This document shows positions 13,540 through 42,170 of a DNA stretch of 64,000 bases, in pieces. The first letter of the stretch is position 1; every line of letters begins with the position of its first letter. A program made the position numbers and the translations under genes. Origin of the DNA: Croceibacterium sp. (GTDB lineage Bacteria > Pseudomonadota > Alphaproteobacteria > Sphingomonadales > Sphingomonadaceae); NCBI GenBank assembly GCA_039927815.1, contig JBDSUJ010000034.1:1170-65169 (forward strand), given 5' to 3'. The notes under the pieces are model-generated. The model did no database searches and was not told the origin of the DNA. It saw nothing but the letters and a program-made list of their open reading frames with translations.

Positions 13540-13581
13540 CCCCGTAGCACTCCCGCCACCCGCCGTCGAATTCGATTCGGC

Positions 13582-17594: not shown

Positions 17595-18260
17595 TCAATC
17601 CTCTCCGAAGTGCACCGACTCGTCCAGTCGAGAGAGGAAATCCAGCCCGTTGATCACGTGGGCTCGCATCGCACTCTCCGCCGCCTTTGCATCGCCCGCC
17701 ATCACGGCATCGACGATGACGCGGTGGTCCTGAACCGCGGCGCGCAGGCGCTCCCCGCGGTAGAATGTCTCGAACACCAGATGATGGATCGGGGTATTCA
17801 GCCGCTGGACAATGCTCTTGATCACATGGTCGCCCGCCCCGTCCATGATCAGGTTGTGCCATTGCGCGTTCAGACGTGAGAACTGTTCCGGCGCGGGCCC
17901 CGCCACACACGCTTCCATCTGTTCGGCGATGGCGTTCAGTTCGGCCTTTTGCGCTGCGCTTGCTCGCGCGGTAAAATCGGCGGCACAGATGCCCTCCATC
18001 GCCCCCCGAGCATGATAGAGCTGGCGCACTTCCTCCATCGTCGCATTTCGGACCGACGCCCCCCGGAATTCCTCGACATCAACTAGACCTTCCGCGTCCA
18101 GGCGCTGGAGCGCCTCGCGCACCTTGAAACGGCTGCCCCCGGTCTGACGAATTATGTCGATTTCGACCAGACGCTGGCCCGGAACGAGCCTCCTGCGGCG
18201 GATCTGGCCACGGACCCAATCAGCAATCTCGACCGACGATGGCCCCTTTTTTTCTAACAT
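17595..18260 (-). CDS. GntR family transcriptional regulator (FadR/FCD subfamily)
   Basis: N-terminal winged helix (IADWVRGQIRRRRLVPGQRLVEIDIIRQTGGSRFKVREALQRLDAEGLV) plus a helical C-terminal ligand domain. Confidence 0.9.
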   Translation of the reverse strand: MLEKKGPSSVEIADWVRGQIRRRRLVPGQRLVEIDIIRQTGGSRFKVREALQRLDAEGLVDVEEFRGASVRNATMEEVRQLYHARGAMEGICAADFTARASAAQKAELNAIAEQMEACVAGPAPEQFSRLNAQWHNLIMDGAGDHVIKSIVQRLNTPIHHLVFETFYRGERLRAAVQDHRVIVDAVMAGDAKAAESAMRAHVINGLDFLSRLDESVHFGED

Positions 18261-18388
18261 TTGCAGTCTCGTTGACTTGAAAGGGCAGTCTCCTGGTAAT
18301 CAGCGATATTGTCAACAATTTCGTCATCGTGATTTTCGTTGCACTGTCGCCGCGCGTGGCCTTGATGGCAGTTGGAGGAGAGAGGTTC

Positions 18389-20143: not shown

Positions 20144-22864
20144 ATGATTATTGACAAGCAGGGGCTCCGCCCCGCGATCTTGATGCTGGGCGTTTCGCTG
20201 GGCACGCTGGCGATGGCCAGTCCCGTTTCCGCGCAAGACCGTCCGGTGCCCAGCGCGACAGTTCCGGCCGACCCTGAGGGCGCCGGTCCAACTCCTGTTA
20301 CCGATACGCCTCCCGAAACGATCGTGGTGACAGGAAGCCGGTTGCGCGGCGTAGCGCCAGTTGGGTCCAGCGTCATCGCGCTGGGCCGCGCGGAGATCGA
20401 AAGCTCAGGCGCGGTGACCATCGACCGGATAATCAAGGAAATCCCGCAGAACTTCGACCTGGGCGTGTCCGAGAACTCGCGCGGCCAGTCGGGCGGGAGC
20501 GGCAATATCACGTACGGCAACTCGGTCAACTTGCGGGGGATCGGCCCTTACGCGACCCTGGTGATCATCGATGGCCACCGCGTGACCAGCAACAGCCGTT
20601 CGATCGACCCCTCGGTGCTGCCCTCGCTCGGTGTTGAACGGGTCGAGGTCGTCGCCGACGGCGCGTCGGCGATTTACGGGTCGGACGCCGTGGCGGGGGT
20701 CGTCAACTTGATCCCGCGTCGCACGCTCGATGGCGGCGAAATGTTTGCCCGCAGTGGCTTTTCGGACGGGGGCGACTTTAGCGAAAAGGCGGTTGGCCTG
20801 GCACTGGGCAAGCGCTTTTCGCGCGGACAAATCATGATCGCGGGCGAGCATGTGGAACGTTCCAACCTCTCGGGCGACGACCGCAATTTCTTCGTCAGCA
20901 ATCAACTCCCGTTCGGCGGCACTGACGGGCGAACCACGCGCTGCAATCCCGGCAACATCCGAGTCGGTTCCACGTTCTACGCCATTCCAGCCGGCGGGGT
21001 CACCCAGGCGAACGCCGGATCTCTGGTGGCAGGCACGCGCAACTTGTGCGAGCTGCTGCGGGGCCAAGACCTGATCCCCGAACAGAGCTACAATACCGTG
21101 AATAGCACGGGCACGTTCGACATTACGGGCAGCATCAGTCTGTTCTACGATGCGTTCTATTCCAAGCGCGATTTCTACCGCCGCGGCAGCTACATCGCGC
21201 TTAATAACGTGAACGTGCCGCAGACGAATGCATTCTTCGTGCGCCCGGCTGGATTTGCCGGCAACAGCTACGGCATCGATTACCTCGCTTTGGAACTTCC
21301 GCCCGGCAACACCGCCGGTTACGCCAAGAGCTGGCAGGTAACCCCCGGGATCCGCGTCAAACTGCCGCACGATTTCCAATTCGAAGCGCTGGTTGGGCGC
21401 GGCAAGACCGATGACTTCTCGGGCCTCTATACCGCGGTTAATAATGGCGCGCTCACTACGGCGTTGGCCAGCAGCGACCCGGCCAAGGCGCTCGACGTCT
21501 ATGGTCTCGGACGGACCAATCCGGCGATCTTGCCGGGGTTGGCTGACAATATCTTCCTAGCGCCGACCAACGGCGACTTGTGGACCTACGCAGCCCGGAT
21601 CAACGGATCCTTGGTGGATCTGCCGGGCGGTTCGGTTAAGCTGGCGGCGGGGTTCGAGCGGCAGGACTTCAACGTGGCGCTGGGGTCCGCGCGCGGTGGA
21701 CCAACCCTGCCGATCACTTACCGCAACTTCGGCCGTACCGTGGATTCTTTCTATGGCGAGTTGTACATCCCGATCTTCGGGCCGGGCAACGCGATACCGG
21801 GGTTCGAGCGGCTGGAACTGAACGCCGCGGTCCGACATGACAAGTACAGCGACGTTGGCTCGACCACCAATCCAAAGTTTGGGATCAACTGGTCGCCAAT
21901 CGACGCGGTCAAGCTGCGCGCCAGTTACGGCACATCGTTCCGTGCGCCCACTATCCCCGAAATCTACGGCAATTCGAACAACCTGTTCGTCCAACCCTAT
22001 TCCAACCCCGCCGGCGGGACCATTATCGGGGTAGCCTTGTCCGGCCAGAACCTCGACCTCACGCCGGAAACCGCAAAGACTTGGTCGGTGGGCGCGGATA
22101 TCACGCCCGTGCCGCGGCTGCGCCTCGGCGCGACCTACTGGAGCGTGAATTACGACAACCAGGTCGTCGCCAATCTGTCGAACCTCGCGATCCTAGGCAG
22201 CGAAGCGTTCTACGCGGGCACCGGCATCATCCTGCGTGGGGCGGAAGCGGCCGCGAAGGTCGCCGCGCTGAACGGTTCCGGCGTCGGCTTCAGTGGCGTG
22301 CCACCCGTGCCGGTGACCCTGTTCGTCGACGGGCGCGGGCGCAACCTGGGCACTTCGGTTACGCGCGGTATCGACGTCGTCCTCGATTGGCGGATCAACT
22401 TGACCCCGCAGGACATGATCTCACTCAATGCAGCGGGAACGTACCTCACCACTTACCGCGTTGCCGCAACCCCGAACGCCCCGCAGATTGACCGCCTGAA
22501 CACCATCTTCAATCCGCTGCGATTCAAAGCGCGGTCCAGCGTTTCGTGGGATCACGCTCCGTTCAATGTTCGCGCCACGTGGACGCACATCAACGGGTAC
22601 ATCAACAACGTGCCCACGGTGCCGCAGCAGGTGGGCAGTTTCAACCCGGTCGATCTTGCGATCACTTTCAAGGTCGGAGACGAGTCGGCGAGCGGCTTTG
22701 TCGCCAAGGGCGCTTCGGTCACGCTCGAAGTTCGCAACGCCTTTGACGAGGCGCCGCCTTATGTGAACATAACCCCCAGCGGAAACGGCAGCGGGGGTTA
22801 CGATGCCTCTGCAGCCGATCCGATCGGGCGCTTGTTTGCCGTGAGCGTCAGGAAATCTTTCTAG
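20144..22864 (+). CDS. TonB-dependent receptor
   Basis: 906 aa. Signal peptide ends SPVSAQD. Plug motifs ETIVVTGSRLRG, VERVEVVADGASAIYGSDAVAGVVNLI. C-terminal ...FAVSVRKSF. Confidence 0.9.
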   Translation: MIIDKQGLRPAILMLGVSLGTLAMASPVSAQDRPVPSATVPADPEGAGPTPVTDTPPETIVVTGSRLRGVAPVGSSVIALGRAEIESSGAVTIDRIIKEIPQNFDLGVSENSRGQSGGSGNITYGNSVNLRGIGPYATLVIIDGHRVTSNSRSIDPSVLPSLGVERVEVVADGASAIYGSDAVAGVVNLIPRRTLDGGEMFARSGFSDGGDFSEKAVGLALGKRFSRGQIMIAGEHVERSNLSGDDRNFFVSNQLPFGGTDGRTTRCNPGNIRVGSTFYAIPAGGVTQANAGSLVAGTRNLCELLRGQDLIPEQSYNTVNSTGTFDITGSISLFYDAFYSKRDFYRRGSYIALNNVNVPQTNAFFVRPAGFAGNSYGIDYLALELPPGNTAGYAKSWQVTPGIRVKLPHDFQFEALVGRGKTDDFSGLYTAVNNGALTTALASSDPAKALDVYGLGRTNPAILPGLADNIFLAPTNGDLWTYAARINGSLVDLPGGSVKLAAGFERQDFNVALGSARGGPTLPITYRNFGRTVDSFYGELYIPIFGPGNAIPGFERLELNAAVRHDKYSDVGSTTNPKFGINWSPIDAVKLRASYGTSFRAPTIPEIYGNSNNLFVQPYSNPAGGTIIGVALSGQNLDLTPETAKTWSVGADITPVPRLRLGATYWSVNYDNQVVANLSNLAILGSEAFYAGTGIILRGAEAAAKVAALNGSGVGFSGVPPVPVTLFVDGRGRNLGTSVTRGIDVVLDWRINLTPQDMISLNAAGTYLTTYRVAATPNAPQIDRLNTIFNPLRFKARSSVSWDHAPFNVRATWTHINGYINNVPTVPQQVGSFNPVDLAITFKVGDESASGFVAKGASVTLEVRNAFDEAPPYVNITPSGNGSGGYDASAADPIGRLFAVSVRKSF

Positions 22865-22895: not shown

Positions 22896-24008
22896 ATGAG
22901 CGATGACTTTGTAACCCTGGTGCTGGCCGGGGACCTCATTCTGGACGAACCGGACCCGGGCTACTGGCTCTCGGGCATCGCCCCTGCTTTGCGCGCGGCC
23001 GACCTCGCGATCGGTCATCTTGAGGTACCGCACACGGACTGCCACGACGAGGTAGGAGGCGACGTCCCATCTCCGGGGGCGCCGCCGGAGAATCTCGCTG
23101 CGCTGGCCCAGGCGGGTTTCGCAATGGTGAGCCTGGCCGGCAATCATATGGCGGATTGCGGACCGCAGGGCATCGCCGACACCATCGCAGGCCTCGGCGC
23201 TGCCGGGATCGCCCATGCGGGTGCAGGTGCTGACCTGGCCGCGTCGCGCCAAGCTGCGTTCGTTACTGTAAAAGGCCTTCGGATCGCCCTGTTGAGCTAC
23301 AACTGCGTCGGGCCCGAGTTCGGCTGGGCTGGGCCAGGCAGCGCTGGGAGTGCTTATCTTCCCCTGGAAGTGGCAGGTGGAGGGCCAGTGACGCCGCGCT
23401 CGACGATCGCGGCGATTGCCCCTCAGGCGTACGACATTCTCGCTGAGGATATCGCTACCGCGCGAGCGCAAGCGGATATCGTGCTGGTAGCGTTGCACAA
23501 GGGGCGCGTGCACACTCCGGCGGCGCTTGAACCCTACGAAAGCCCGTTGGCCCGCGCCGCGATCGACGCCGGGGCGGACGTGGTGATCGGCCACCACGCG
23601 CACATCGCGCGCGGGATCGAATTCCATCGCGGCAAACCGATCTTCCACGGCCTTGGCAACGGTTGTGTCGTCACGCGCGCTTTATCACCGGCCCAGGATC
23701 ACCCCGCGCGGCGCGAGTGGGCGGAGCAGCGCAAGGTCCTGTTCGGTTTCGAACCCGACCCGGAATATACGCTCGCGCCGTTCCATCCTGAGGCGAAGCA
23801 CGCCTTCCTCGGGAGAGTTGAAGTGGCGCGGAATGGGGCAGTGCGCGCCTCGATCGTACCCGTGTGGGTAGAAGCGCCGGGCAGGCCAGTGCTGGCGAGC
23901 GGCCAGCGGGCGGAGCAAGTGCGGCGGTATATCGAGGCTATTACCGTCAGCGCCGGGCTGGATGCGGTCACCATCGGCGACGATGGCCGGGTGGCTCTCG
24001 CCGCATGA
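22896..24008 (+). CDS. CapA family (PGA_cap, metallophosphoesterase-like) protein
   Basis: 370 aa. Motifs LAGDLILD, AIGHLE.P, SLAGNHMADCG, VIGHHAHIARGIE. No signal peptide. No capB/capC homologs nearby. Confidence 0.75.
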   Translation: MSDDFVTLVLAGDLILDEPDPGYWLSGIAPALRAADLAIGHLEVPHTDCHDEVGGDVPSPGAPPENLAALAQAGFAMVSLAGNHMADCGPQGIADTIAGLGAAGIAHAGAGADLAASRQAAFVTVKGLRIALLSYNCVGPEFGWAGPGSAGSAYLPLEVAGGGPVTPRSTIAAIAPQAYDILAEDIATARAQADIVLVALHKGRVHTPAALEPYESPLARAAIDAGADVVIGHHAHIARGIEFHRGKPIFHGLGNGCVVTRALSPAQDHPARREWAEQRKVLFGFEPDPEYTLAPFHPEAKHAFLGRVEVARNGAVRASIVPVWVEAPGRPVLASGQRAEQVRRYIEAITVSAGLDAVTIGDDGRVALAA

Positions 24009-24454
24009 CGGCGCTGCACCGCATCGGTGTATGGATCGGAGGCGCCGCGCTGCTGGCTGCGACGGCAATCGACACCATCGCGGTGATCGGGCGCAACATC
24101 GGCCTGCCGATCATCGGCTCGATCGAACTGGTCCAGACGGCTGTGCTGGTGTCGGGCGTGTTCGGCCTGATCTTTGCCACCTGGGGCGAGGAGCACGCCC
24201 GAGTCCGCATCCTTACTGACCGCCTCCCGCGCGCGGGTGCGCTGGCGGATATCATCGGGCCTTTGTCGATGGCACTGTTCTTTGGCTGCCTGCTGACCGG
24301 CTCGCTGTGGCTGGCCAGCGACCTGTGGAGCGGTCACGAGCGAAGCGAAGTGCTCGGTATTCCGTGGGGCGCCCTGCGGCTCACGGCGAACCTTGGGTTG
24401 GCGGGCTGCGTGTTAGCTTCGCTCGCGGTGCTTTTCCGGCGCACCCAGCGATGA
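24005..24454 (+). CDS. TRAP transporter small permease subunit (DctQ-like)
   Basis: 149 aa, four hydrophobic segments. The ATG overlaps the capA-like stop (ATGA). Immediately precedes the DctM-like gene. Confidence 0.75.
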   Translation: MTALHRIGVWIGGAALLAATAIDTIAVIGRNIGLPIIGSIELVQTAVLVSGVFGLIFATWGEEHARVRILTDRLPRAGALADIIGPLSMALFFGCLLTGSLWLASDLWSGHERSEVLGIPWGALRLTANLGLAGCVLASLAVLFRRTQR

Positions 24455-25758
24455 TTTACGCGACTCCCGCCACCGGTGCACTGGGCCTGCTCGTGCTCTT
24501 CGCGCTCATTTTGAGTGGGGTGCGCATCGGCGCGGCGCTCGGTCTTGTCGGGTTGGGTGGGCTGGCGGTCGTGCTCGGGCCGGAACCGGCGTTGATCAAG
24601 GCGGGCGTGGTCACCATCGACACATTGACGCGATACGAGCTTGGCACGCTGCCGCTGTTCCTGCTGATGGCGCACGTGTTCTTCGCGGTCGATGCCAGCC
24701 GCGACATGTTCGATGTCGCCGCACGGTTCCTGGGCCACCGGCGGGGCGGGCTCGCCTATGCCGCTGTGGCCGGCTGCGCGGGCTTCGGCGCCATAAACGG
24801 CTCGAGCCTCGCGACCGCGGCAACGATCGGTTCTGTCGCGCTCCCGGAAATGCGCCGCCGCGGCTATTCGGACGCCCTGGCGACGGGCACCGTCGCCGCG
24901 GGCGGTACTCTGGGCCAGATGATCCCGCCCTCGGGCGCGCTCATCGTTTATGGCATCATTGCCGAGACGTCGATCGGGCAACTGTTCACGGCCGCGATCA
25001 TTCCGGGAATTTCTCAGGCGCTGTTTTATTTCGTGGTGATCTGGCTGCTCGTGCGGTGGAAACCGGGCGTCGCGCCGGCGTCCGAACGGGCGGGGTGGCG
25101 CGAGCGGTGGGAGTCCTTGCGCCGCGTCTGGGACATGGCGCTGCTCATCGCGGTAGTCATCGGCGGGATCGCCGTGGGTTGGATCAGCCCGTCCGAGGCC
25201 GCTGCCATCGGGGCGGCGGGTTCCCTCCTCATCGCGCTAGTCCGGCGTCGGCTCGGCTGGTCAATGCTGTTCTCGGCCTTCGAGGCGACCCTCAAGACGA
25301 GTGGGATGATTTTCCTCATCATCATCGGCGCGCTGGTGTTCTCGGTCTTCATCGGCGTCACCGGCCTCGCCGAAGCGGCCAGCTCCGGGATCGCGGGGCT
25401 GCACCTGGGCCCGACCGGCACGCTGGTGGTTATCGCCTTGCTGCTGCTGGTTCTCGGCTCGGTTCTCGACGGGCTCGCGCTTATGTTGCTGACCACGCCG
25501 ATCCTGCTGCCGATCGTCGAGTCCACCGGCATGTCGGCGCTGTGGTTCGGTATCTTCATCACCCGGGCGATGGAAATGGGCTTCGTCCATCCGCCGCTCG
25601 GCATGAACCTTTATGTGATCCAGGGGGTGGCAAAAGATGTTCCCATCGGCCGTATCTTCAAAGGCGTCCTGCCGTTCCTGGCCAGCGACTTCGTGCACTT
25701 GTTCTTGCTGATCCTGGTCCCCGGCATGGCGCTATGGCTGCCCTCGGTGCTGAGATGA
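24451..25758 (+). CDS. TRAP transporter large permease subunit (DctM-like)
   Basis: 435 aa polytopic protein. Motifs ...GFGAINGSSLATAATIGSVALPEM and GTLGQMIPPS are typical of DctM. ATGA overlap with the DctQ-like gene. Confidence 0.9.
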   Translation: MIYATPATGALGLLVLFALILSGVRIGAALGLVGLGGLAVVLGPEPALIKAGVVTIDTLTRYELGTLPLFLLMAHVFFAVDASRDMFDVAARFLGHRRGGLAYAAVAGCAGFGAINGSSLATAATIGSVALPEMRRRGYSDALATGTVAAGGTLGQMIPPSGALIVYGIIAETSIGQLFTAAIIPGISQALFYFVVIWLLVRWKPGVAPASERAGWRERWESLRRVWDMALLIAVVIGGIAVGWISPSEAAAIGAAGSLLIALVRRRLGWSMLFSAFEATLKTSGMIFLIIIGALVFSVFIGVTGLAEAASSGIAGLHLGPTGTLVVIALLLLVLGSVLDGLALMLLTTPILLPIVESTGMSALWFGIFITRAMEMGFVHPPLGMNLYVIQGVAKDVPIGRIFKGVLPFLASDFVHLFLLILVPGMALWLPSVLR

Positions 25759-26642
25759 CGGGCCCTATTGCCCACGTCGGGCCCAACCTGCCGATGGACC
25801 TTCTGCGGGCAACCGGCCGTCACGCGGGCGCAATAGCGTTCGATCCCGATCGTTCTACGCCGGTCGCAGACCAGTGGATGGAGACGAAGTTCGCCCCGTG
25901 GGCCAAAGTCATTCTCGAGGGGTGGGCAGCCGGCGAATACGACGAGCTGGCACAAGTTCTGTTCAGCCGGGCGGACGACAGCGCGCAGCGCTTATATTAT
26001 TACGTATGCGAGCTGCAGCGGCGGGGACTCGTTGGTGGACCCGAGCCGCTGATCCTCGATATCGCGAAAGTTCCGCGTGCCAGCAGCATCGATCACACCG
26101 CGCATTGCGTGCGTCAATTGACCGTGCGGTTGGAGGTCGACGAGGACGTGCTGGTCACCGCGATCGAGACTTGCAATGCGGAGCGATCCGTTGCTGCCAG
26201 CGCGGTTGGGAGGCCGGTGTGCCTTCTCGCCGGCACTCCGCCGCCTGACGGACGGCTGCATGCTGCCATTCGTCAGGCCGGCTTCGTCCCGGTCGGGCGG
26301 ACTTTGCTCGAAACCTGGAATCAGCTGGGTTCACCGGTCGACTTGACCACTGGCGACGCCTGCGCCGCGTTGGCCCGCCAGATACACGGCGATCCGCAAG
26401 GGCCGCGGTCGTTTGCTGATCCCGGCGCCATGTTGAGCGGTGCATTATCCGCCACTGGCGCGACGGCTGTCATCCTGTGGCAGACGGAGGAAGACGAAGC
26501 GCAGGCCTGGCATCTGCCGGCTCAGAGAGCAGCCCTGTCCACCGCAGGCGTATCGGCTCTGGTCATGACCCGCCGCGACTGGCTCGGCCGCGATGCTGCG
26601 GCACACGAAATCACCGCGTTCCTCGGGGGAATTAAGGCATGA
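25755..26642 (+). CDS. Divergent 2-hydroxyacyl-CoA dehydratase family (BcrC/BadD/HgdB-like) protein, short form
   Basis: 295 aa. ATGA overlap with dctM. N-terminal IAHVGPNLPMDLLRATG and C-terminal AVILWQTEEDEAQAWHLPAQRAALSTAGVSALVM resemble the family termini (...P.E...A.G / ...G.P.L..). The upstream 233 codons of the track ORF lie inside dctM and were rejected. Confidence 0.5.
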   Translation: MTGPIAHVGPNLPMDLLRATGRHAGAIAFDPDRSTPVADQWMETKFAPWAKVILEGWAAGEYDELAQVLFSRADDSAQRLYYYVCELQRRGLVGGPEPLILDIAKVPRASSIDHTAHCVRQLTVRLEVDEDVLVTAIETCNAERSVAASAVGRPVCLLAGTPPPDGRLHAAIRQAGFVPVGRTLLETWNQLGSPVDLTTGDACAALARQIHGDPQGPRSFADPGAMLSGALSATGATAVILWQTEEDEAQAWHLPAQRAALSTAGVSALVMTRRDWLGRDAAAHEITAFLGGIKA

Positions 26643-28723
26643 GCCTGCTCAAGGGCCATCGCGTCGCCATTGTCGGCGGGATGGCGAACCGGCCATTGGC
26701 GCGGTTCCTCGCTTCTCTTGGCGCGGAGCTGGGCGGCCCCGTCGAAGGGGCATCGTTTGTCATCGACGATCTCGGGCTGGAGGCGACCCGCGCCTTGCCA
26801 ATCGCCGAATCCACGGTGCACGTGTCGGTCACACCATTTGGCTCGGGCGGGCCGCGCAGCCAGTGGCGGGGCAGCGAGCTGGTGGCTTCCGCCACCGGAG
26901 GCGCCCTTCGCGTCACCGGAGAGCCGGGTCGTCCGCCGGTCAAGGAAGCCGGTGATGCCTGCACGTTCCACGCCGACATGGTCGCCGCCGCCGGAGCGAT
27001 GGCGGCGCATTACGCACGTGGCACCCACGGCCGGGGCCAGCATGTCGACGTATCGATCCAGCAGGTCGCCTTCAGCCGCAACACGAACGGCGTGCTTGTC
27101 TGGCAGTTCGACAAGCGGAAGCTCCATCGGGTGGGCGGCAAGCTGGCGTACGGCAAGGCGACCATCCGCGCGATCTGGCGGCTCGCGGACGGGTGGTGCT
27201 TCCATTCGCTGATGACCGGGAGGCTAGGCGCGCCAGCGAACCGTGCGCTGGCGGAGTGGATGGACGAGGAGCCGGCGGAAAATCCGCTGCGCGGCGTCGA
27301 TTGGCTGAGCTACAACCGCTCGACCCTGCCTGCCGAGACCCGCGCACAGTGGGAAGCGGCCATCGCCGCGTTTTTCGCCCGGCGCACCAAGCAAGACATC
27401 GCCGACGAAGGGCTGCGCCGCGGCATCAACGCCTGCGTGGTCAACGAGCCTGCCGATGTGCTCGCTGACGCCCATCTGGCAGCGCGCGGCTTCTTCGACA
27501 CCGAGGACGGCCTGCCGCGGAGGTTTGCGGGGATTGTCGAAGGCGGGCACGCGACGCCGCACGAAAGCCATGGCGGTTCCCGCCCGGGCCCCCTGGCAGG
27601 CGTGCGGGTACTCGACTTTGCTTGGGCGCTGGTGGGCTCGATCACGACCAAGACGCTCGGCGACCTGGGTGCCGACGTCGTCAAGATCGAGAGCCGCACC
27701 CGGCCCGACCTGTCGCGCATGGACGTGCAGGTTTCGGCCTCGCAGCATGGCGATTTTGATGACAAGCCATGGTTCGCGCACCTCAACTCGTCCAAGCGGA
27801 GCGTGACCCTGAATCTCAAGCAGCCGGCTGTCTGGGAGATCCTGCGGCCCCTGATCGAATGGGCCGATGTGGTGGTCGAGAACTTCTCCCCCGGGACGAT
27901 GGCCAAGCTCGGGCTTGGATACGCAGACCTGCAGGCGATCAACCCGCAAATCGTGATGGTCTCGGGCAGCGTCTACGGACAGACCGGCCCCCTGGCGCAG
28001 GAATGGGGCGTGGACGGTACCGGGGGCGCGCTGTCGGGCCGGACCTTCCTGACCGGTTACCCAGGCGGTGATCCGGTGATACCCGGCGCTGTGCCCTACG
28101 GCGATGTAATCGTACCGTTCGTGATGGCGGCTTGCGTCGCTGCCGCGTTGCAAACGCGCCGCGAAAGCGGGCAAAGCTGCCACATCGATGCGTCGATGTA
28201 TGAAATCTGCGTCCAGCAGATGCGGCCCTATCTCGCCGCCGCGATGGCAGGGGAAAGCCCTCAGCGTGCCGGGAATGCCGATCCGGGCGTGTTCTTCCAG
28301 GACGTGTTCCCGGCTGCGGGCGAGGATCGCTGGGTCGCGATCAGTGTTGCGGATGAGCCCGAGTTGGAACGGCTGAAAACCGTGACGGGCAGCGACATCG
28401 CGGGCTGGACCGCGACCCGTGACGACCACGCAATCGCGGATCAGTTGCAGGCCCTCGGGTTCGCCGCGGGGGTCGTGCAGGATTGCGAAGACATGATCGA
28501 GCGCGATCCGCAACTGACCGAGCGCGGGTCGCTGGTCGAACTCGACCATCCCGTGCTGGGTCCGTTCGGGCATATCGCCACCCCGATCCGCTTTTCGCGC
28601 GACGTCCCACAGCCGTACCGTGCTCCGCGCATGGGTGAGCACGGGCGCGAAGTTGCCGCGGAACTGTGCAACCTTGACGACGCGCGGATCGATGAACTGC
28701 AGCAATTGGGAGTGTTCGAGTGA
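26639..28723 (+). CDS. Tandem-domain family III (CaiB/BaiF) CoA-transferase
   Basis: 694 aa. Residues ~320-694 form a canonical module (LAGVRVLDFAWALVGSITTKTLGDLGADVVKIES...). Residues 1-~310 form a second, more degenerate module (LKGHRVAIVGGMANRPLARFLASLGAEL...SATGGALRVTGEPGRPPV). ATGA overlap upstream and GTGA overlap downstream. Confidence 0.85.
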   Translation: MSLLKGHRVAIVGGMANRPLARFLASLGAELGGPVEGASFVIDDLGLEATRALPIAESTVHVSVTPFGSGGPRSQWRGSELVASATGGALRVTGEPGRPPVKEAGDACTFHADMVAAAGAMAAHYARGTHGRGQHVDVSIQQVAFSRNTNGVLVWQFDKRKLHRVGGKLAYGKATIRAIWRLADGWCFHSLMTGRLGAPANRALAEWMDEEPAENPLRGVDWLSYNRSTLPAETRAQWEAAIAAFFARRTKQDIADEGLRRGINACVVNEPADVLADAHLAARGFFDTEDGLPRRFAGIVEGGHATPHESHGGSRPGPLAGVRVLDFAWALVGSITTKTLGDLGADVVKIESRTRPDLSRMDVQVSASQHGDFDDKPWFAHLNSSKRSVTLNLKQPAVWEILRPLIEWADVVVENFSPGTMAKLGLGYADLQAINPQIVMVSGSVYGQTGPLAQEWGVDGTGGALSGRTFLTGYPGGDPVIPGAVPYGDVIVPFVMAACVAAALQTRRESGQSCHIDASMYEICVQQMRPYLAAAMAGESPQRAGNADPGVFFQDVFPAAGEDRWVAISVADEPELERLKTVTGSDIAGWTATRDDHAIADQLQALGFAAGVVQDCEDMIERDPQLTERGSLVELDHPVLGPFGHIATPIRFSRDVPQPYRAPRMGEHGREVAAELCNLDDARIDELQQLGVFE

Positions 28724-30009
28724 GCGCACCACTATCGGGCGTGCGAAGCCGCAAGACGCTTACTTGCACCGCCGAAGCGACGGCATTTCAGAAGGCATTC
28801 GGTCAAGACCTCAAGCGGCAGGTGGTCGATGAGGGCGAACCTTTCGTCATTGCCCAGGCCGACACGCCGCACGAAATCTTCCATGCCATGGATATCCCGG
28901 TGATCTCCAACCAGTGGTGGTCCGCGTACATTTCGGCCAAGCAGCTTTCGGGGCGCTACTTCGATGCGATGGCGCAAGCCGGCTACCCGGCCAACAGCTG
29001 CAAGTACTGCTCGCTGGGCCTCGCCTGCACGATCGCCAATGATCCGACGACTGCGCCTTGGGGCGGCCTCCCCACTCCCACCGCGATCGTGGCGCGGCTA
29101 ACGTGCGATTGCATCCAGCACGTCTTCACCCAGTGGGCAGCCGCCATGGGCACCGACTTCTTCGCAATGGAAGCGCCAGCGTGGGAAACCAAGACGCTTG
29201 ATTGGTACACTCGCTCGAGCACCGAATGGGAAAGCCTCTATCAGCCCGACCGCATCAACCTGATGGTTCAGGAGATGGGGGATTTGATCACCTTGCTAGA
29301 ACGCAAGACCGACCGCCGCTTCGACCGCGCCAAACTGGACGCGTTGATGCAGCGTATCGACGTGCAGGAGCGGGCACTGTGGGAAGCCGCCCGCGCGATC
29401 GGCGAAGCGCGTCCATGCCCGGTTTCGATCGCCGAGCAGATGCCCAATACGATGATCCCCCAGTGGCATCGGGGCTCAGACTGGGCGGTTGCGCATTCCG
29501 AGAAGTTCCGCGACGAGGTCCAGCAGCGGATCGACCAGGGCCTCGGCGCGGCGAGCCATGAGCGGTTGCGGCTGATGTGGATCGGGGCCGGGGTGTGGCA
29601 CGACCCGGGGTTCTATCAGGCGCTTGAAGAGAGCCTGGGAGCTGTCTTCGTCTGGTCCATGTACCTACCCTTCGCCGGGCCCCAGTACATTCGTGAGACG
29701 CACGGGCGGACGATGGACGCGCTGGCCAGCCGGATCTGCTCGATCAACGAAGTGCTGCACCTCCCGCCGTGGATGAATGGCTGGATGGTCAGCGAGGCCA
29801 AACGCTGCGAACTCGACGCCGCCGTCATGCTCCTGCCGCCCGACAACCGGTTGTCGCAATCGGGTACCAAGCTGACGGCGCTGGCGCTCGAGGAAGCGGG
29901 CGTGCCGGTGCTCATGATCGATGCCGACATGGTCGATGCCAAGATCTGGGACCACGCCAAGATGGTGGGCCTGGTCGCGCAGTTCCTCGAGCAGCGGGGG
30001 CTGACGTGA
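28720..30009 (+). CDS. 2-hydroxyacyl-CoA dehydratase family (HgdA/BcrB-like) protein
   Basis: 429 aa. PHEIFHAMDIPVIS, NSCKYCSLGLAC, RLMWIGAGVWHDPGFYQALEESLGAVFVWSMY and the C-terminal LEEAGVPVLMIDADMVD follow the architecture of the HGD-D family. Confidence 0.65.
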   Translation: MSAPLSGVRSRKTLTCTAEATAFQKAFGQDLKRQVVDEGEPFVIAQADTPHEIFHAMDIPVISNQWWSAYISAKQLSGRYFDAMAQAGYPANSCKYCSLGLACTIANDPTTAPWGGLPTPTAIVARLTCDCIQHVFTQWAAAMGTDFFAMEAPAWETKTLDWYTRSSTEWESLYQPDRINLMVQEMGDLITLLERKTDRRFDRAKLDALMQRIDVQERALWEAARAIGEARPCPVSIAEQMPNTMIPQWHRGSDWAVAHSEKFRDEVQQRIDQGLGAASHERLRLMWIGAGVWHDPGFYQALEESLGAVFVWSMYLPFAGPQYIRETHGRTMDALASRICSINEVLHLPPWMNGWMVSEAKRCELDAAVMLLPPDNRLSQSGTKLTALALEEAGVPVLMIDADMVDAKIWDHAKMVGLVAQFLEQRGLT

Positions 30010-31046
30010 CGCCCGTGCGATCCCTCGCCCTGCTCGTGGCGGTGCTCCTGGGAGCATGCACGCGGCCGATTCCGCCGGGCGTTACCGAGCTGACCTACGC
30101 CACCCCCTACGCACCGACCCACCCATTCAGCCGCGCCGACCAGCGGTGGATCGACCACATTGAGTTAGCGTCGGGTGGATCGCTCAAGATCGTGCCGATG
30201 TGGTCTGGCGCGCTGTTGTCATCGGATATGTCGCTTGAGGAGCTGCGCCACGGCGTGGCCGATATCGGCTTGGTCACACCGATCTATACCCGCGGCGGGA
30301 CGCATCTCGTACGCATCCAGTCGGGGTTCTACAGCGGCGCGGACTCGATCGCTTCCCAAGTGGCGCTCTACGGTTGCCTCGAGCGTTCTGTGCCGGAACT
30401 GTCACGCGAGTTGCACGGGCTGCATGTGCTGGCGGTGCAGGGCGGGCTTCTGCCCGGGATCGTCACCAGCAAGCGACCGGTGAAGTCGTTGGCCGATCTG
30501 AAAGGCTTGCGGATCCGTGCCCCAACCGAATTGCTTACCGTCCTGCGCGGCCTTGGCGCCGATCCAGTCAACATGCCGATGGGCGACGTCTATTCCGCGC
30601 TGGCGCGGGGCGTCATCGACGGCGTGATTGCCCCGATCGACACGTTTCGCGCGCTCCATTTCGACGAGGTGGGTCATTACTACGCGACGCTCTCCGTGCC
30701 CCGGGGCGCCTACCCTTCGCGCGCGATCGGCGATGCCGCATGGGCCCGGCTGACCCCTGTGCAACAGCAACTATTATTGCAGTCGCGGTCCGTGTGGGAG
30801 GCAGACTTGCGCGATGAGATAGAGAAGGGCGCGGTGACCGGGGCTGCGGCCGCCAAAAAGTCAGGAGTGCGGATCGTCGACTTCGCCCCGGCCGAGCAAG
30901 CGCGGTTCGACGCGCTGTACCTGGCCGACGCGCAAACCAACGCGCGGGCGCTCGCGGCCTTCGGCATCGACGGGCTCGACGCCTTCCGCAAGGCGCGCGC
31001 GAGCGTCCGCACCAGAGACCATATTCAATGCAGAGGGGCCGCGTGA
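30006..31046 (+). CDS. TRAP transporter substrate-binding protein (DctP-like), lipoprotein
   Basis: GTG start overlapping the previous stop (GTGA). Lipobox LLGAC. Core GLRIRAPTELLTVLRGLGADPVNMPMGDVYSALARGVIDGV is typical of DctP. Confidence 0.8.
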   Translation: MTPVRSLALLVAVLLGACTRPIPPGVTELTYATPYAPTHPFSRADQRWIDHIELASGGSLKIVPMWSGALLSSDMSLEELRHGVADIGLVTPIYTRGGTHLVRIQSGFYSGADSIASQVALYGCLERSVPELSRELHGLHVLAVQGGLLPGIVTSKRPVKSLADLKGLRIRAPTELLTVLRGLGADPVNMPMGDVYSALARGVIDGVIAPIDTFRALHFDEVGHYYATLSVPRGAYPSRAIGDAAWARLTPVQQQLLLQSRSVWEADLRDEIEKGAVTGAAAAKKSGVRIVDFAPAEQARFDALYLADAQTNARALAAFGIDGLDAFRKARASVRTRDHIQCRGAA

Positions 31047-32245
31047 ACCAGCCACTGACGGGTATCCGGGTGGCTGATTTCAGCCATGTCATGGCCGGGC
31101 CTTTCGCCTCTCATCTGCTACGGCTGATGGGTGCGGAAGTCATCAAGATCGAACCCAAGAGCGGCGATCAATTCCGCGACTATAGTCCCGATCCCGGCTT
31201 TGCCGGCATGAGCCCGCCCTTTATCGCGGCCAATGTCGGGAAGAAGTCGATCGCGCTCGACCTCAAGGATCCGAACGAAAACGCGATTGCCCGCTCGATC
31301 GTCGAGCGCAGCGACGTGTTGATCGAAAATTTCCGGCCCGGGGTCATGGCTCGCCTCGGTCTTTGCTACGAAAAGGTCCAGCAGACGAACCCCGGGATCA
31401 TTTATTGCTCGGTCTCGGGTTACGGCCAGAACAGCCCTCAGCGCGATTGGCCGGCCATCGACAATATCGTTCAGGCCACCGCGGGCATGATGATGCTGAG
31501 CGGCGGAGAGGGCGAACCGCCGGTGCGCGTCGGCTTCCCGATCGTCGACACGCTGGCCGGGCAGACCGCCGCGCTCGCGATTCTGGGTGCCATCGTCCAG
31601 CGCCAGGCGACGGGGCAGGGGGCGCAGATCGATGTCTCGATGTTCGATGCCACGCTCGCGTTCATGACGTCGGCCATCACGCCCTATCTGGTGACCGGTC
31701 GCGCCATGAAGCGGATGGGCAATACCGGCTATAGCGGGTTGCCAACGGCCTCGCTGTTCACGTGCCGCGACGGGCGCCAGATCTCGCTCGGGATCGTGCA
31801 GGACAACCAGTTCGCCGCCTTCGCCAAGCGTGTCGGCCGGGAGGACTGGCTGACCGACGAACGCTTCAGCACGCCGACGGCGCGTCGAGCAAATTTCGAT
31901 GCCGTTCACGCCGAACTGGCGACGACGTTCGCCCAGCGCGACGCGGCGCAATGGGAAGCCGAATTGAGCGCCAACGGAATCCCGTGCGGCATGATCCGCA
32001 CGGTCAACGAAGCCGTCGATCTGGCGAGCGAGGCAGGCCTCCTGCACGTGGCTATCCCGGGCATTCCTCAGATTGGCACCCTGGCCATTCCCAATGCCGG
32101 CTTCCAGATGAAGCCGGGCTCGCCCGGAACCGCCGAACCGCCGCCCCGGCTCGACGAGCACCGCGAGGAGATTCTCGAATGGCTCGCGCACGATCCCGGA
32201 GATAAAGGTAAGGGCGTCAAAACCGGCGGTGGAGAGGCAAAATGA
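31043..32245 (+). CDS. Family III (CaiB/BaiF) CoA-transferase
   Basis: LTGIRVADFSHVMAGPFASHLLRLMGAEVIKIEP... is the canonical N-terminus. GTG 31043 gives a GTGA overlap with dctP. An in-frame ATG at 31028 is the alternative start. Confidence 0.9.
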   Translation: MNQPLTGIRVADFSHVMAGPFASHLLRLMGAEVIKIEPKSGDQFRDYSPDPGFAGMSPPFIAANVGKKSIALDLKDPNENAIARSIVERSDVLIENFRPGVMARLGLCYEKVQQTNPGIIYCSVSGYGQNSPQRDWPAIDNIVQATAGMMMLSGGEGEPPVRVGFPIVDTLAGQTAALAILGAIVQRQATGQGAQIDVSMFDATLAFMTSAITPYLVTGRAMKRMGNTGYSGLPTASLFTCRDGRQISLGIVQDNQFAAFAKRVGREDWLTDERFSTPTARRANFDAVHAELATTFAQRDAAQWEAELSANGIPCGMIRTVNEAVDLASEAGLLHVAIPGIPQIGTLAIPNAGFQMKPGSPGTAEPPPRLDEHREEILEWLAHDPGDKGKGVKTGGGEAK

Positions 32246-42162: not shown

Positions 42163-42170
42163 GCGAGCGC

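What the first reader, a model, noticed from the sequence alone, without database searches (positions are those of the whole stretch)
25755..30009. Fld/Had-like trio (CoA-transferase flanked by two 2-hydroxyacyl-CoA-dehydratase-family subunits) without an activator ATPase
Family III CoA-transferase plus two HgdA/HgdB-type subunits is the composition of clostridial phenyllactate (FldABC) and 2-hydroxyisocaproate (HadA + HadBC) dehydration systems. Those systems are oxygen-sensitive and need a dedicated ATP-dependent activator (HgdC/FldI/HadI, BcrAD_BadFG family). No such ATPase is encoded anywhere in this 64-kb window. The genomic context (oxygenases, TonB receptors) looks aerobic. The smaller subunit is truncated (295 aa) and divergent. 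In both proteins, positions where I expect Fe-S ligand Cys near the C-terminus read TEEDE and DNRLSQ. This may be an activator-independent, possibly cluster-less, repurposed member of the family.
Basis: partly seen in the sequence, partly recalled or inferred. Interest (0 to 1): 0.7.

Follow-up and report, generated by a model that had tools for sequence, protein, structure and literature searches.

The report
Aerobic, activator-less dehydratase-family enzyme pair
An oxygen-breathing bacterium carries a conserved operon whose core is a relative of the strictly anaerobic, radical "2-hydroxyacyl-CoA dehydratase / benzoyl-CoA reductase" enzymes, but it has lost most iron-sulfur ligands and has no ATP-driven activator nearby, so this enzyme family probably has an unstudied, oxygen-compatible branch.

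Summary
At 25755-30009 three translationally coupled genes encode a 295-aa beta-type HGD-D protein (ORF1), a 694-aa two-domain family III CoA-transferase (ORF2) and a 429-aa alpha-type HGD-D protein (ORF3). They lie inside a gap-free nine-gene operon. That operon is part of a 12-gene cluster kept collinear in 60-80 of the 80 species examined, mostly aerobic Sphingomonadales.

- **ORF1:** it has no Cys at any position where Cys-rich relatives have one.
- **ORF3:** it keeps two of the three canonical [4Fe-4S] ligands (C94, C129). The third is an invariant Asn (N376).
- **Activator:** no BcrAD_BadFG ATPase was found in the window, in the 80 orthologous loci or in 11 loci of more distant relatives.
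- **Relatives:** the nearest ones (35-44% identity) are often beta-alpha fusions. Of 133 fusions, 128 have no ligand Cys at all. They sit in the same module in Caulobacter, Brevundimonas, Sphingomonas, Povalibacter and Egicoccus. In three of five contexts they lie beside 4-hydroxybenzoate hydroxylase-type genes, and in two of those also beside protocatechuate genes.

Best reading: an activator-independent, non-radical, repurposed HGD-D enzyme working with CoA-transferases in aerobic breakdown of an ester-linked aromatic or alicyclic acid. The reaction and substrate are unknown. I found no literature on it.

The parts
17595..18260 (-). GntR/FCD-family regulator, divergently transcribed from the cluster
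   Evidence: Pfam FCD 2.4e-25 and GntR 3.6e-10. A homologue lies in the same position in 32 of 80 loci, limited by the flank length fetched.
18329..20092 (+). CocE/NonD (peptidase S15) hydrolase, probably periplasmic; the likely true start is the ATG at 18389
   Evidence: Pfam Peptidase_S15 5.4e-42 and PepX_C. NCBIfam CocE_NonD 7.2e-59. PDB cocaine esterase and alpha-amino-acid ester hydrolase. Present in 63 of 80 loci. The signal-peptide-like N-terminus MATRRVSAMALALLCSGPLA was judged by eye.
20144..22864 (+). TonB-dependent outer-membrane receptor
   Evidence: Pfam Plug and TonB_dep_Rec_b-barrel. Present in 67 of 80 loci.
22896..24008 (+). Cytoplasmic PGA_cap (CapA/PgsA/MslH-type, metallophosphatase-fold) protein; first gene of the gap-free operon
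   Evidence: Pfam PGA_cap 1.1e-54. PDB 8gq9 4.5e-21. Present in 71 of 80 loci. It is 49-57% identical to the PGA_cap genes beside the fused HGD-D genes of Caulobacter and Sphingomonas. A PGA_cap gene also lies next to Cys-keeping relatives.
24005..24454 (+). TRAP transporter small permease DctQ
   Evidence: Pfam DctQ 3.1e-14. ATGA overlap with the PGA_cap stop codon.
24451..25758 (+). TRAP transporter large permease DctM
   Evidence: Pfam DctM 8.4e-94. ATGA overlaps at both ends.
25755..26642 (+). ORF1: shortened beta/N-type HGD-D subunit (295 aa) without cluster ligands
   Evidence: 531 homologues. 73 of 84 family members hit Pfam HGD-D. AlphaFold pLDDT 94.3. Foldseek matches HadC, BzdN, MbdN and DCCP. 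Only C85 and C156 are conserved, and neither lies at a Cys column of Cys-rich relatives. Its family HMM hits the N-terminal domain of 95 of 133 fused relatives.
26639..28723 (+). ORF2: two-domain family III CoA-transferase. Residues 1-310 form a shortened BbsE-like domain with invariant E80. Residues 311-694 form a complete BbsF-like domain with invariant D459.
   Evidence: Pfam CoA_transf_3 5.5e-113. PDB BbsF 9fn0_B 1.1e-43 for residues 318-692, and BbsE 9fn0_A for residues 60-289. Both halves are equally conserved, and D459 and E80 are present in 74 of 74 sequences. In Povalibacter the two halves are separate genes.
28720..30009 (+). ORF3: alpha/O-type HGD-D subunit (429 aa). C94, C97 and C129 are kept. 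The third canonical ligand is replaced by N376 in the invariant motif PPDNRxSQSG.
   Evidence: Pfam HGD-D 8.6e-46. PDB by sequence: MbdO 1e-13, BzdO 5.6e-13, HadB 1.1e-9. Foldseek: BzdO 2.3e-16, MbdO TM 0.79, HadB TM 0.77. Cys table. It is the most conserved protein of the cluster, median 75% identity.
30006..31046 (+). TRAP solute-binding protein DctP
   Evidence: Pfam DctP 7.6e-29. GTGA overlap with the ORF3 stop codon. Best PDB relatives are 4n6d, 4nap and 4pgn.
31028..32245 (+). Second, single-domain family III CoA-transferase (405 aa)
   Evidence: Pfam CoA_transf_3 3.2e-108. Present in 79 of 80 loci. It is the closest window homologue (32-38% identity) of the CoA-transferase that directly precedes the fused HGD-D genes of Caulobacter, Brevundimonas, Sphingomonas and Povalibacter, and of a CoA-transferase about 6 kb upstream in Egicoccus.
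32242..33228 (+). Exported alpha/beta hydrolase related to PETase/cutinase-type polyester hydrolases
   Evidence: No Pfam hit at E <= 0.01. PDB 9hl5_A 3.9e-10, PETase 9w68_A 7.1e-10, lipase 2fx5. It is 40-42% identical to the 'PETase (weak)' genes beside the fused HGD-D genes. Present in 60 of 80 loci.

Best explanation
ORF1 (beta) and ORF3 (alpha) form a heterodimer with the fold of the 2-hydroxyacyl-CoA dehydratase / class I benzoyl-CoA reductase family. This branch no longer works by ATP-driven electron injection. The beta subunit has no iron-sulfur site. The alpha subunit has lost one canonical ligand. No activator ATPase belongs to the module.

The pair is the cytoplasmic core of an aerobic catabolic operon. 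The inferred route is as follows.

- A TonB-dependent receptor takes up an ester-linked plant or algal compound.
- Two exported esterases (CocE/NonD-type and PETase/cutinase-type) release a carboxylic acid.
- A TRAP transporter imports the acid.
- A PGA_cap protein, possibly an MslH-like alpha-epimerase, and the family III CoA-transferases (ORF2, a fused BbsEF-like heterodimer, and the 405-aa enzyme) turn it into a CoA thioester and later recycle the CoA.
- The HGD-D pair transforms the acyl-CoA by acid-base or Lewis-acid chemistry rather than ketyl-radical chemistry. Most likely this is an elimination of water.
- The product enters beta-oxidation or the 4-hydroxybenzoate/protocatechuate route.

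Shown here: the gene composition, the folds, the ligand losses, the conservation of the module, the absence of an activator from 91 loci, and the link to aromatic-acid genes. Inferred: heterodimer formation (from natural beta-alpha fusions), the direction of the pathway, the type of reaction and the substrate class.
For: **Fold and pairing**
- ORF3 matches alpha/O-type subunits.
- ORF1 matches beta/N-type subunits.
- Relatives of 686-845 aa fuse an ORF1-like and an ORF3-like domain.

**Ligand loss**
- ORF1 has R22, A58, P98, A159, A175 and V239 where Cys-rich relatives have Cys.
- ORF3 N376 replaces the Cys380-type ligand.
- 128 of 133 fused relatives have no Cys at positions 94, 129 or 376.

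**No activator**
- tblastn with YjiL gave no hit better than E 0.85 in the window plus 80 loci, and none better than 3.8 in ten further loci.
- Precomputed Pfam lists for 11 contexts show no BcrAD_BadFG.

**Module conservation**
- The cluster is collinear in 60-80 of 80 species.
- Nine genes have overlapping start and stop codons.
- PGA_cap, S15, receptor, PETase-like and DctP/M genes orthologous to the window's (36-58% identity) surround the Cys-less fused genes.

**Aromatic link**
- In Caulobacter segnis and Egicoccus, pobA-like and pcaHG/B/C/D/IJ genes are adjacent. Brevundimonas has a pobA-like gene.
- Sphingomonas endolithica has a VanA-like Rieske gene. P450 genes occur.
- 3HCDH, ECH and thiolase genes lie beside P0241.
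- The window itself carries aromatic ring-cleavage genes and a tannase/feruloyl esterase.

**Selection**
- ORF3 is the most conserved protein of the cluster at 75% median identity. This argues for a working active site.
Against: - No biochemical datum exists for any member.
- Textbook chemistry (my knowledge, Buckel's argument) holds that removing the alpha-OH and a non-acidic beta-H from a 2-hydroxyacyl-CoA needs a ketyl radical. A cofactor-less dehydratase of that type is therefore chemically awkward, and the true reaction may be something else.
- ORF3 orthologues keep six invariant Cys, including two canonical ligand positions, so a cluster may still be present and needed.
- The invariance of those Cys is weak evidence either way, because 191 of 429 positions are 98% or more invariant in this shallow alignment.
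- Whole genomes could not be searched for an activator.
- The activator search used a single query (YjiL) plus Pfam annotations.
- I could not read the model coordinates, so the Cys geometry is unknown.
Confidence: 0.55

Rival explanations
1. The alpha subunit still binds an iron-sulfur cluster, for example through C94, C97 and C129 with C131 standing in for the lost Cys376-type ligand. That cluster would be catalytic. It could act as a Lewis acid, as in aconitase-type dehydratases. Or it could act as a redox centre reduced by a general cellular donor (ferredoxin or flavodoxin) instead of a dedicated ATPase. The chemistry would then remain close to that of the anaerobic enzymes.
For: - C94, C97, C103, C129, C131 and C233 are invariant in 120 orthologues.
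- C94, C97 and C129 are exactly the positions kept by the Cys-containing relatives (11 of 11).
- C131, C103 and C233 are rarely Cys in the other relatives, as expected if they compensate for a lost ligand.
- The two loops carrying these residues are the low-confidence parts of the model (pLDDT 55-71 for residues 61-110 and 64 for 371-380). This is common for cofactor loops predicted without the cofactor.
Against: - The same gene module works in Caulobacter, Brevundimonas, Sphingomonas, Povalibacter and Egicoccus with alpha domains that have E/D94, S97, S/T129 and a deletion or Pro at 376. The shared function therefore cannot depend on this cluster.
- The beta subunit, which relays electrons in BzdNO (PMC11971306), has no ligands.
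- ORF3's two closest relatives (P0242 and P0243, 41-43% identity) lack all these Cys and share its D-R-x-S motif.
Confidence: 0.2
2. ORF1 and ORF3 are catalytically dead remnants. They would serve only as a scaffold or substrate-channelling partner for the CoA-transferases, by analogy with FldA riding on FldBC. All chemistry would be done by the CoA-transferase-family and PGA_cap proteins. The CoA-transferase family also contains racemases and intramolecular transferases.
For: - Cofactor ligands have been lost.
- One to four CoA_transf_3 genes accompany every relative.
- In-frame CoA-transferase::HGD-D-alpha fusions occur among metagenome proteins P0325, P0365 and P0374.
- The CoA_transf_3 family includes alpha-methylacyl-CoA racemase and 2-methylfumaryl-CoA isomerase (PDB hits).
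Against: - ORF3 is the most conserved protein of the cluster.
- About 120 positions are 85% or more conserved across the Cys-less relatives. They include polar residues in the former active-site region (E52, Q65, K74, Q75, R178, H250, R251, E266, E281, R284, R325, R338). That is more than a scaffold would need.
- The beta-alpha pair is retained in every lineage examined.
Confidence: 0.12
3. It is a conventional oxygen-sensitive radical dehydratase or reductase. Its activator would be encoded elsewhere in the genome, and the enzyme would be used only under micro-oxic or anoxic conditions.
For: - Family membership of ORF3 and the Fld/Had-like composition.
- Whole genomes could not be searched.
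- Some sphingomonads respire nitrate (title of PMC4741004, seen).
Against: - No beta-cluster ligands and the third alpha ligand missing.
- None of 91 loci has an activator gene. In the canonical systems I know (hgdCAB, fldAIBC, hadAIBC, bzdNOPQ, yjiLM; for yjiLM) the activator is adjacent.
- The operon sits among oxygenase genes.
- The hosts are aerobic Sphingomonadales and Caulobacterales.
Confidence: 0.04

Closest known systems
Phenyllactate dehydratase FldABC + FldI, and 2-hydroxyisocaproyl-CoA dehydratase HadBC + HadI + HadA (Clostridium)
   Same: - Composition: a family III CoA-transferase plus an alpha/beta pair of HGD-D-fold subunits encoded together.
- ORF3 aligns over its full length with HadB (3o3m_A, 1.1e-9; TM 0.77). 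ORF1's model matches HadC (TM 0.81).
- A CoA-recycling cycle is plausible.
   Different: - No activator gene.
- The beta subunit is about 80 aa shorter and has no cluster Cys.
- The alpha subunit's third ligand is Asn.
- The host is aerobic.
- The operon also holds a TonB-dependent receptor, a TRAP transporter, two esterases and a PGA_cap protein.
- The CoA-transferase is a two-domain fusion, and a second one is present.
- Sequence identity is only about 16%.
Bzd/Mbd-type class I benzoyl-CoA reductase catalytic module BzdNO / MbdNO (PDB 8s02, 9g87; PMC11971306)
   Same: - These are the closest solved relatives of ORF3 by sequence (1e-13, 5.6e-13) and by fold (2.3e-16; TM 0.74-0.79). BzdN and MbdN are among the best matches of ORF1.
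- C94 and C129 align with MbdO Cys that should correspond to BzdO Cys95 and Cys128 by numbering. BzdO itself was not aligned over this region.
   Different: - BzdN carries a six-Cys [8Fe-9S] cluster. BzdO carries a [4Fe-4S]-OH2 cluster on Cys95, Cys128 and Cys380. The reductase needs BzdPQ and ATP.
- Here the N-type subunit has none of these Cys, the Cys380 position is Asn, and no PQ-type ATPase is present.
- The host is aerobic.
Double-cubane cluster protein DCCP / E. coli YjiM with activator DCCP-R / YjiL
   Same: Same fold. DCCP is the top Foldseek hit of ORF1 (7yyl_B, 1.8e-11).
   Different: - DCCP is a homodimer with a six-Cys [8Fe-9S] cluster and an adjacent activator (yjiL next to yjiM).
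- None of this holds here.
Succinyl-CoA:(R)-benzylsuccinate CoA-transferase BbsEF (PDB 9fn0)
   Same: - The ORF2 C-terminal domain is closest to BbsF (1.1e-43). Its N-terminal domain matches BbsE residues 122-346.
- ORF2 therefore looks like a heteromeric family III transferase. In Povalibacter the two halves are separate genes.
   Different: - ORF2 is a single polypeptide.
- Its N-terminal domain is shortened and has an invariant Glu (E80) where the C-terminal domain has the invariant Asp (D459).
- Its substrate is unknown.
Uncharacterised fused beta-alpha 'HGD-D family proteins' of aerobic bacteria (e.g. Egicoccus WP_373678137.1, Caulobacter segnis, Brevundimonas subvibrioides CP002102.1)
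   Same: - Same subfamily, at 35-44% identity to ORF3.
- Same neighbours: CoA_transf_3, PGA_cap, Peptidase_S15, TonB-dependent receptor, PETase-like hydrolase, and a TRAP or MFS transporter.
- No activator.
   Different: - They are single polypeptides with no ligand Cys at all.
- The window's version is split. The CoA-transferase gene lies between the halves, and C94, C97 and C129 are retained.
- None has a published function in the library I could search.

Membership tests
Pfam HGD-D (PF06050) superfamily | Significant match to the family profile, or the family fold | tested here: met
   ORF3 scores 157.5 bits against a cut-off of 28.4. ORF1 alone scores 15 bits, below the cut-off. However, 73 of 84 family members match (best 4.3e-15), and its model matches HadC, BzdN, MbdN and DCCP with TM 0.76-0.81.
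ATP-activated 2-hydroxyacyl-CoA dehydratases (HgdAB/C, FldBC/I, HadBC/I, LcdAB/C) | Alpha/beta heterodimer of two HGD-D subunits | tested here: met
   An alpha-type and a beta-type gene lie in one operon. Natural beta-alpha fusions occur in relatives. Physical association was not tested.
ATP-activated 2-hydroxyacyl-CoA dehydratases | [4Fe-4S] cluster on three Cys in the alpha subunit | tested here: not met
   C94 and C129 are present. The third position is invariant N376. An alternative ligand such as C97 or C131 cannot be excluded.
ATP-activated 2-hydroxyacyl-CoA dehydratases | Iron-sulfur cluster in the beta subunit | tested here: not met
   Only C85 and C156 are conserved in ORF1. Neither lies at a Cys column of Cys-rich relatives, where ORF1 has R22, A58, P98, A159, A175 and V239.
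ATP-activated 2-hydroxyacyl-CoA dehydratases | Dedicated BcrAD_BadFG activator ATPase, normally adjacent | tested here: not met
   Not in the 64-kb window, in 80 orthologous loci of about 21 kb each, or in 11 contexts of relatives. Whole-genome absence is not testable with these tools.
ATP-activated 2-hydroxyacyl-CoA dehydratases | Co-encoded CoA-transferase that supplies and recycles the thioester | tested here: met
   ORF2 and the 405-aa protein are CoA_transf_3 members. From my own knowledge, FldA and HadA belong to this family. The catalytic-type Asp D459 is invariant.
ATP-activated 2-hydroxyacyl-CoA dehydratases | Oxygen-sensitive syn-dehydration of an (R)-2-hydroxyacyl-CoA via a ketyl radical | not testable with these tools
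   This needs an enzyme assay.
Class I benzoyl-CoA reductase, Bzd type | BzdO-type [4Fe-4S]-OH2 on Cys95/128/380 and BzdN-type [8Fe-9S] on six Cys | tested here: not met
   Ligand numbers come from PMC11971306. ORF3 keeps two of the three positions. ORF1 has none of the Cys columns.
Class I benzoyl-CoA reductase, Bzd type | BzdPQ ATPase module | tested here: not met
   No BcrAD_BadFG homologue was found in any locus.
Family III CoA-transferases (CoA_transf_3) | Profile match over the full domain, with the conserved active-site Asp | tested here: met
   ORF2 residues 319-668 match profile positions 1-365 of 366. D459 aligns with the Asp of the GYD motif of SUGCT 9br6 and is present in 74 of 74 sequences. 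That this Asp is catalytic is from my own knowledge (Frc Asp169). The N-terminal domain is partial and carries Glu80.

The most novel reading that the evidence does not exclude
The HGD-D family is the textbook case of ATP-driven ketyl-radical enzymology in strict anaerobes. It may have a widespread oxygen-compatible branch, split in Sphingomonadales and fused in Caulobacterales, some Gammaproteobacteria and Actinomycetota. This branch would use neither an activator nor, in most members, any iron-sulfur cluster. Yet it would still catalyse an elimination on a CoA thioester. Two candidates are aryl-lactyl-CoA to cinnamoyl-type CoA, and quinoyl/shikimoyl-CoA to 4-hydroxybenzoyl-CoA. Either would be a new, non-radical solution to a reaction class thought to need radicals, and a new CoA-dependent aerobic route from plant esters to 4-hydroxybenzoate/protocatechuate.
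Probability: 0.25. Interest if true: 0.9.

Novelty: new variant of a known kind. Interest (0 to 1): 0.75.

Why it matters
All characterised members of this family need an extremely oxygen-sensitive ATPase to inject one electron. This holds for the 2-hydroxyacyl-CoA dehydratases, the class I benzoyl-CoA reductases and the double-cubane proteins.

A branch kept under strong selection in hundreds of aerobic species, without the activator and largely without the clusters, would mean one of two things. Either the scaffold supports a different chemistry that has not been described, or the 'radical-only' reaction can be done another way. Both would interest enzymologists.

It could also matter for biotechnology. 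Oxygen-tolerant dehydration of 2-hydroxy acids to acrylate- or cinnamate-type products is sought after.

The conserved neighbours point to an undescribed aerobic, CoA-dependent pathway for ester-bound plant aromatics in abundant soil and aquatic bacteria. These neighbours are the esterases, the receptor, the TRAP transporter, the PGA_cap protein and the pobA/pca genes.

The question is directly testable, because cultured hosts exist. Examples are Croceibacterium salegens, Novosphingobium taihuense, Asticcacaulis biprosthecium, Caulobacter segnis and Brevundimonas subvibrioides.

Tried and rejected
- **Profile-profile comparison of the ORF1 and ORF3 families (hhalign):** not significant (probability 0.5%). 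The link between ORF1 and HGD-D had to come from Pfam hits of family members, from the fold search and from the fused relatives.
- **ORF1 sequence or profile against PDB sequences:** nothing significant.
- **Literature (one search failed on syntax):** no paper in the held library links HGD-D or 2-hydroxyacyl-CoA dehydratase homologues with Sphingomonadales, Caulobacter, aerobic hosts, TRAP transporters or TonB-dependent receptors. This is absence from that library only.
- **NCBIfam scans of the cluster proteins:** only sub-threshold matches to named equivalogs. No substrate could be assigned.
- **Further conserved neighbours of the split-type cluster:** none beyond the 12 genes. The downstream LuxR, BKACE and MFS genes of the window are not conserved, so I left them out of the system.
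- **DctP against PDB:** the best relatives include Dde_0634 (4nap, 4pgn). It binds a D-amino acid and indole-3-acetate. This is only a weak hint of an aromatic ligand.
- **Model coordinates:** not available to scripts, so distances between the Cys of ORF3 could not be measured.
- **Whole-genome search for an activator:** not possible.
- **Poly-gamma-glutamate or siderophore utilisation as the function:** I rejected this. The neighbours of relatives are aromatic-acid genes, and the PGA_cap protein is cytoplasmic.

Full report
**Observation.**
- ORF1 (25755-26642, 295 aa), ORF2 (26639-28723, 694 aa) and ORF3 (28720-30009, 429 aa) are on the + strand. They are joined by 4-base ATGA/GTGA start/stop overlaps.
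- ORF3 is a clear Pfam HGD-D protein (8.6e-46). ORF2 is a family III CoA-transferase (5.5e-113, two stretches).
- ORF1 has no significant Pfam, NCBIfam or PDB-sequence match of its own. It is a real gene, with 531 homologues.
- 73 of 84 members of the ORF1 family hit HGD-D (best 4.3e-15; the window copy 0.019).
- Its AlphaFold model is confident (pLDDT 94.3). It matches the beta/N-type subunits HadC, MbdN and BzdN, and DCCP, with TM 0.76-0.81.
- The ORF3 model (pLDDT 82.7) matches the alpha/O-type subunits BzdO, MbdO and HadB.
- The trio is therefore a CoA-transferase flanked by a beta-type and an alpha-type HGD-D subunit, as claimed.
- The window comes from a Croceibacterium sp. metagenome-assembled genome (P0121, 100% identical to ORF1).

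**Surroundings.**
- The trio is inserted between dctM and dctP of a TRAP transporter.
- Nine genes from 22896 to 33228 have no intergenic DNA at all. In order they are PGA_cap, dctQ, dctM, ORF1, ORF2, ORF3, dctP, a second 405-aa CoA-transferase and an exported PETase/cutinase-like hydrolase.
- Upstream lie a TonB-dependent receptor, a CocE/NonD (S15) hydrolase with a signal-peptide-like N-terminus, and a divergent GntR/FCD regulator.
- ORF3 has relatives in 231 of the species genomes scanned. In the best 80 (mostly Sphingomonadales, also Asticcacaulis, Emcibacter, Rhodospirillaceae and a Pseudohongiellaceae MAG) this 12-gene set is collinear in 60-80 loci (the divergent regulator in 32). No other gene is conserved beside it.
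- ORF3 is the most conserved protein of the set (median 75% identity). ORF1 is among the least conserved (51%).

**Cluster ligands in ORF3.**
- In BzdO the [4Fe-4S] cluster sits on Cys95, Cys128 and Cys380 plus a water. In BzdN an [8Fe-9S] cluster sits on six Cys (PMC11971306).
- In alignments with MbdO and HadB (BzdO aligns only in part), ORF3 has C94 and C129 at the first two positions and N376 at the third.
- The same holds against much closer Cys-keeping relatives.
- N376 lies in the invariant motif PPDNRxSQSG.
- ORF3 orthologues also keep C97, C103, C131 and C233.
- This alignment is shallow: 191 of 429 positions are 98% or more invariant. Invariance of the Cys is therefore only weak evidence that they bind a metal.

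**Cluster ligands in ORF1.**
- Only C85 and C156 are conserved in ORF1.
- At the columns where Cys-rich relatives have Cys in the beta domain, ORF1 has R22, A58, P98, A159, A175 and V239.
- The beta subunit is therefore almost certainly cluster-less.
- That removes the relay that passes electrons from the ATPase to the active site in the Bzd enzyme.

**Activator.**
- tblastn with E. coli YjiL (fetched) found nothing better than E 0.85 in the window plus the 80 loci, about 1.6 Mb in total.
- It found nothing better than E 3.8 in ten further loci.
- Pfam scans of the cluster genes and every other predicted window gene of 200 aa or more show no BcrAD_BadFG.
- The precomputed Pfam lists for 11 contexts of relatives show none either.
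- Limits: one query sequence was used, flanks were at most 10 kb, and no whole genome was searched.

**The wider subfamily.**
- An exhaustive search of 1.84 billion representative proteins found 141 relatives at E <= 1e-30. Outside the orthologous group, identity drops at once to 35-44%.
- Many of these relatives are 686-845 aa and hold two HGD-D domains.
- The ORF1 family HMM hits the N-terminal domain of 95 of 133 such proteins (best 1.4e-22). The ORF3 family HMM hits the C-terminal domain of all 133. These are natural beta-alpha fusions, and they argue that ORF1 and ORF3 form a heterodimer.
- 128 of the 133 have no Cys at positions 94, 129 or 376. The typical residues are E/D94, S97, S/T129 and Pro or a deletion at 376.
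- They come from aerobes: Caulobacter, Brevundimonas, Sphingomonas, Povalibacter, Spongiibacteraceae and Egicoccus.
- Their neighbours are the same families as in the window. A CoA_transf_3 gene lies directly upstream in four of the five contexts. PGA_cap, Peptidase_S15, a TonB-dependent receptor, a PETase-like hydrolase, MarR, and DctQMP or an MFS transporter recur.
- The accessory proteins are 36-58% identical to the window's.
- In Povalibacter the two halves of ORF2 are separate genes. This fits the PDB result that the ORF2 C-terminal domain resembles BbsF and its N-terminal domain BbsE.
- Relatives that keep all ligand Cys (P0394, P0241, P0392, P0257) also sit beside CoA_transf_3 genes, and three of them beside PGA_cap. 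They have no activator in the DNA available.
- CoA_transf_3 with a beta and an alpha HGD-D domain is thus the signature of the whole subfamily, and PGA_cap accompanies most members. About 120 positions are shared at 85% or more across the Cys-less members, and most are shared by the Cys-keeping ones.

**What it probably does.**
- The fused genes lie next to pobA-like and pcaHG/B/C/D/IJ(/F) genes in Caulobacter segnis and Egicoccus. They lie next to a pobA-like gene, an AMP-ligase and an enoyl-CoA hydratase in Brevundimonas, and next to a VanA-like Rieske protein in Sphingomonas endolithica. P450 genes occur in several contexts. P0241 lies beside 3-hydroxyacyl-CoA dehydrogenase, enoyl-CoA hydratase and thiolase genes.
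- The window itself carries aromatic ring-cleavage genes, a tannase/feruloyl esterase and an RPE65-type dioxygenase.
- I infer an aerobic route in which an ester-bound aromatic or alicyclic acid is taken up, hydrolysed in the periplasm and imported. It would then be converted to a CoA thioester, transformed by the HGD-D pair, and passed on towards 4-hydroxybenzoate/protocatechuate.
- Orthologous modules work without any ligand Cys. The shared reaction is therefore most likely acid-base or Lewis-acid chemistry, not ketyl-radical chemistry.
- Two concrete candidates cannot be separated here.
  - **(a) Dehydration of a 3-aryl-lactyl-CoA to a cinnamoyl-type CoA.** This fits the Fld-like composition, the MarR regulators, the beta-oxidation genes and a possible MslH-like epimerase role for PGA_cap. 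It is chemically hard without a radical (my knowledge).
  - **(b) Aromatising dehydration of a hydroxylated alicyclic acyl-CoA such as quinoyl- or shikimoyl-CoA.** This fits BzdO and MbdO being the closest solved relatives, and esterases acting on chlorogenate-type esters. It is a stoichiometric possibility that I worked out myself and have not tested.

**Comparison with what is known, and novelty.**
- By composition the locus resembles FldABC or HadA/HadBC. By sequence and fold ORF3 is nearest to BzdO and MbdO, and ORF2 to BbsEF.
- It fails the defining features of the ATP-activated enzymes that I could test: the beta cluster, the third alpha ligand and the adjacent activator. It should not be filed as a conventional member.
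- Seven literature searches found nothing on aerobic, activator-less or cluster-less HGD-D proteins. Database names are generic: '2-hydroxyacyl-CoA dehydratase family protein' and 'BcrC/BadD/HgdB'.
- I rate it a new variant of a known kind, and of high interest.

**Main uncertainties.**
- No biochemistry exists for any member.
- Whole genomes were not searched for an activator.
- The substrate is unknown.

Noticed in passing
window 22896-33228: Nine genes have no intergenic DNA. There are ATGA/GTGA 4-base overlaps at seven junctions and a 19-base overlap between dctP and the second CoA-transferase gene. The enzyme genes are inserted between dctM and dctP of the TRAP transporter, which is an unusual order.
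   Followed up: yes
L088 10001-12505, L090 8691-11219, L091 4133-6636: Relatives that keep all canonical ligand Cys ('CCCC' at 94/97/129/376) also sit beside PGA_cap and CoA_transf_3 genes and have no BcrAD_BadFG gene in the available DNA. L088 also has an 809-aa double CoA_transf_3 protein like ORF2. The loss of the activator may therefore predate the loss of the clusters.
   Followed up: partly
ORF3 residue 97 (window about 29008-29010): C97 forms a CxxC pair with C94. It is Cys in 11 of 11 Cys-keeping relatives of this subfamily, but not in HadB or MbdO. It might be a fourth ligand, giving a fully Cys-ligated and hence non-catalytic cluster in the ancestor.
   Followed up: no
metagenome proteins P0325, P0365, P0374: These are in-frame fusions of an ORF2-C-domain-like CoA-transferase to the N-terminus of an ORF3-like protein (42% and 53% identity to ORF2 and ORF3 for P0325). 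They may be natural fusions pointing to a transferase-alpha complex, or assembly or gene-calling artefacts.
   Followed up: partly
L070 17752-18630 (- strand): A second, YjiM-like HGD-D gene (tblastn 3.6e-15) lies about 7 kb downstream of the ORF3 orthologue in an uncultured alphaproteobacterial MAG.
   Followed up: no
window 12388-16323: This 1311-aa open reading frame has a TonB-receptor plug that starts only at residue 525. It lies downstream of an anti-sigma gene (RskA_C, 11012-11797). It is either a receptor with a very long N-terminal extension or a mis-set mechanical start.
   Followed up: no
window 41254-57840: This stretch is an aromatic and plant-phenolic catabolic neighbourhood. It holds an extradiol dioxygenase (41254-42162), two FAD_binding_3 monooxygenases, two FAA hydrolases, Amidohydro_2, a GST, a tannase/feruloyl esterase (53265-54947), two SnoaL-like proteins and an RPE65/lignostilbene-dioxygenase-family protein (56167-57840).
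   Followed up: partly
window 34040-36252: A BKACE (beta-keto acid cleavage enzyme) gene and an MFS transporter lie next to a LuxR-type regulator immediately downstream of the cluster. They are conserved in only 1 of 80 loci, so they are not part of the system.
   Followed up: yes
window 30006-31046 (DctP): The second- and third-best solved relatives are 4nap and 4pgn (from memory, both Dde_0634 of Oleidesulfovibrio alaskensis). That protein binds a D-amino acid (PMC10443332) and indole-3-acetate (PMC9973260). This is a weak hint that the TRAP ligand is an aromatic alpha-substituted acid.
   Followed up: partly
window 4853-9389 (- strand): A DUF4331 protein (1.2e-136) lies next to a DUF4394-autotransporter fusion. 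Type II secretion and prepilin peptidase genes are nearby. These are unrelated to the finding.
   Followed up: no
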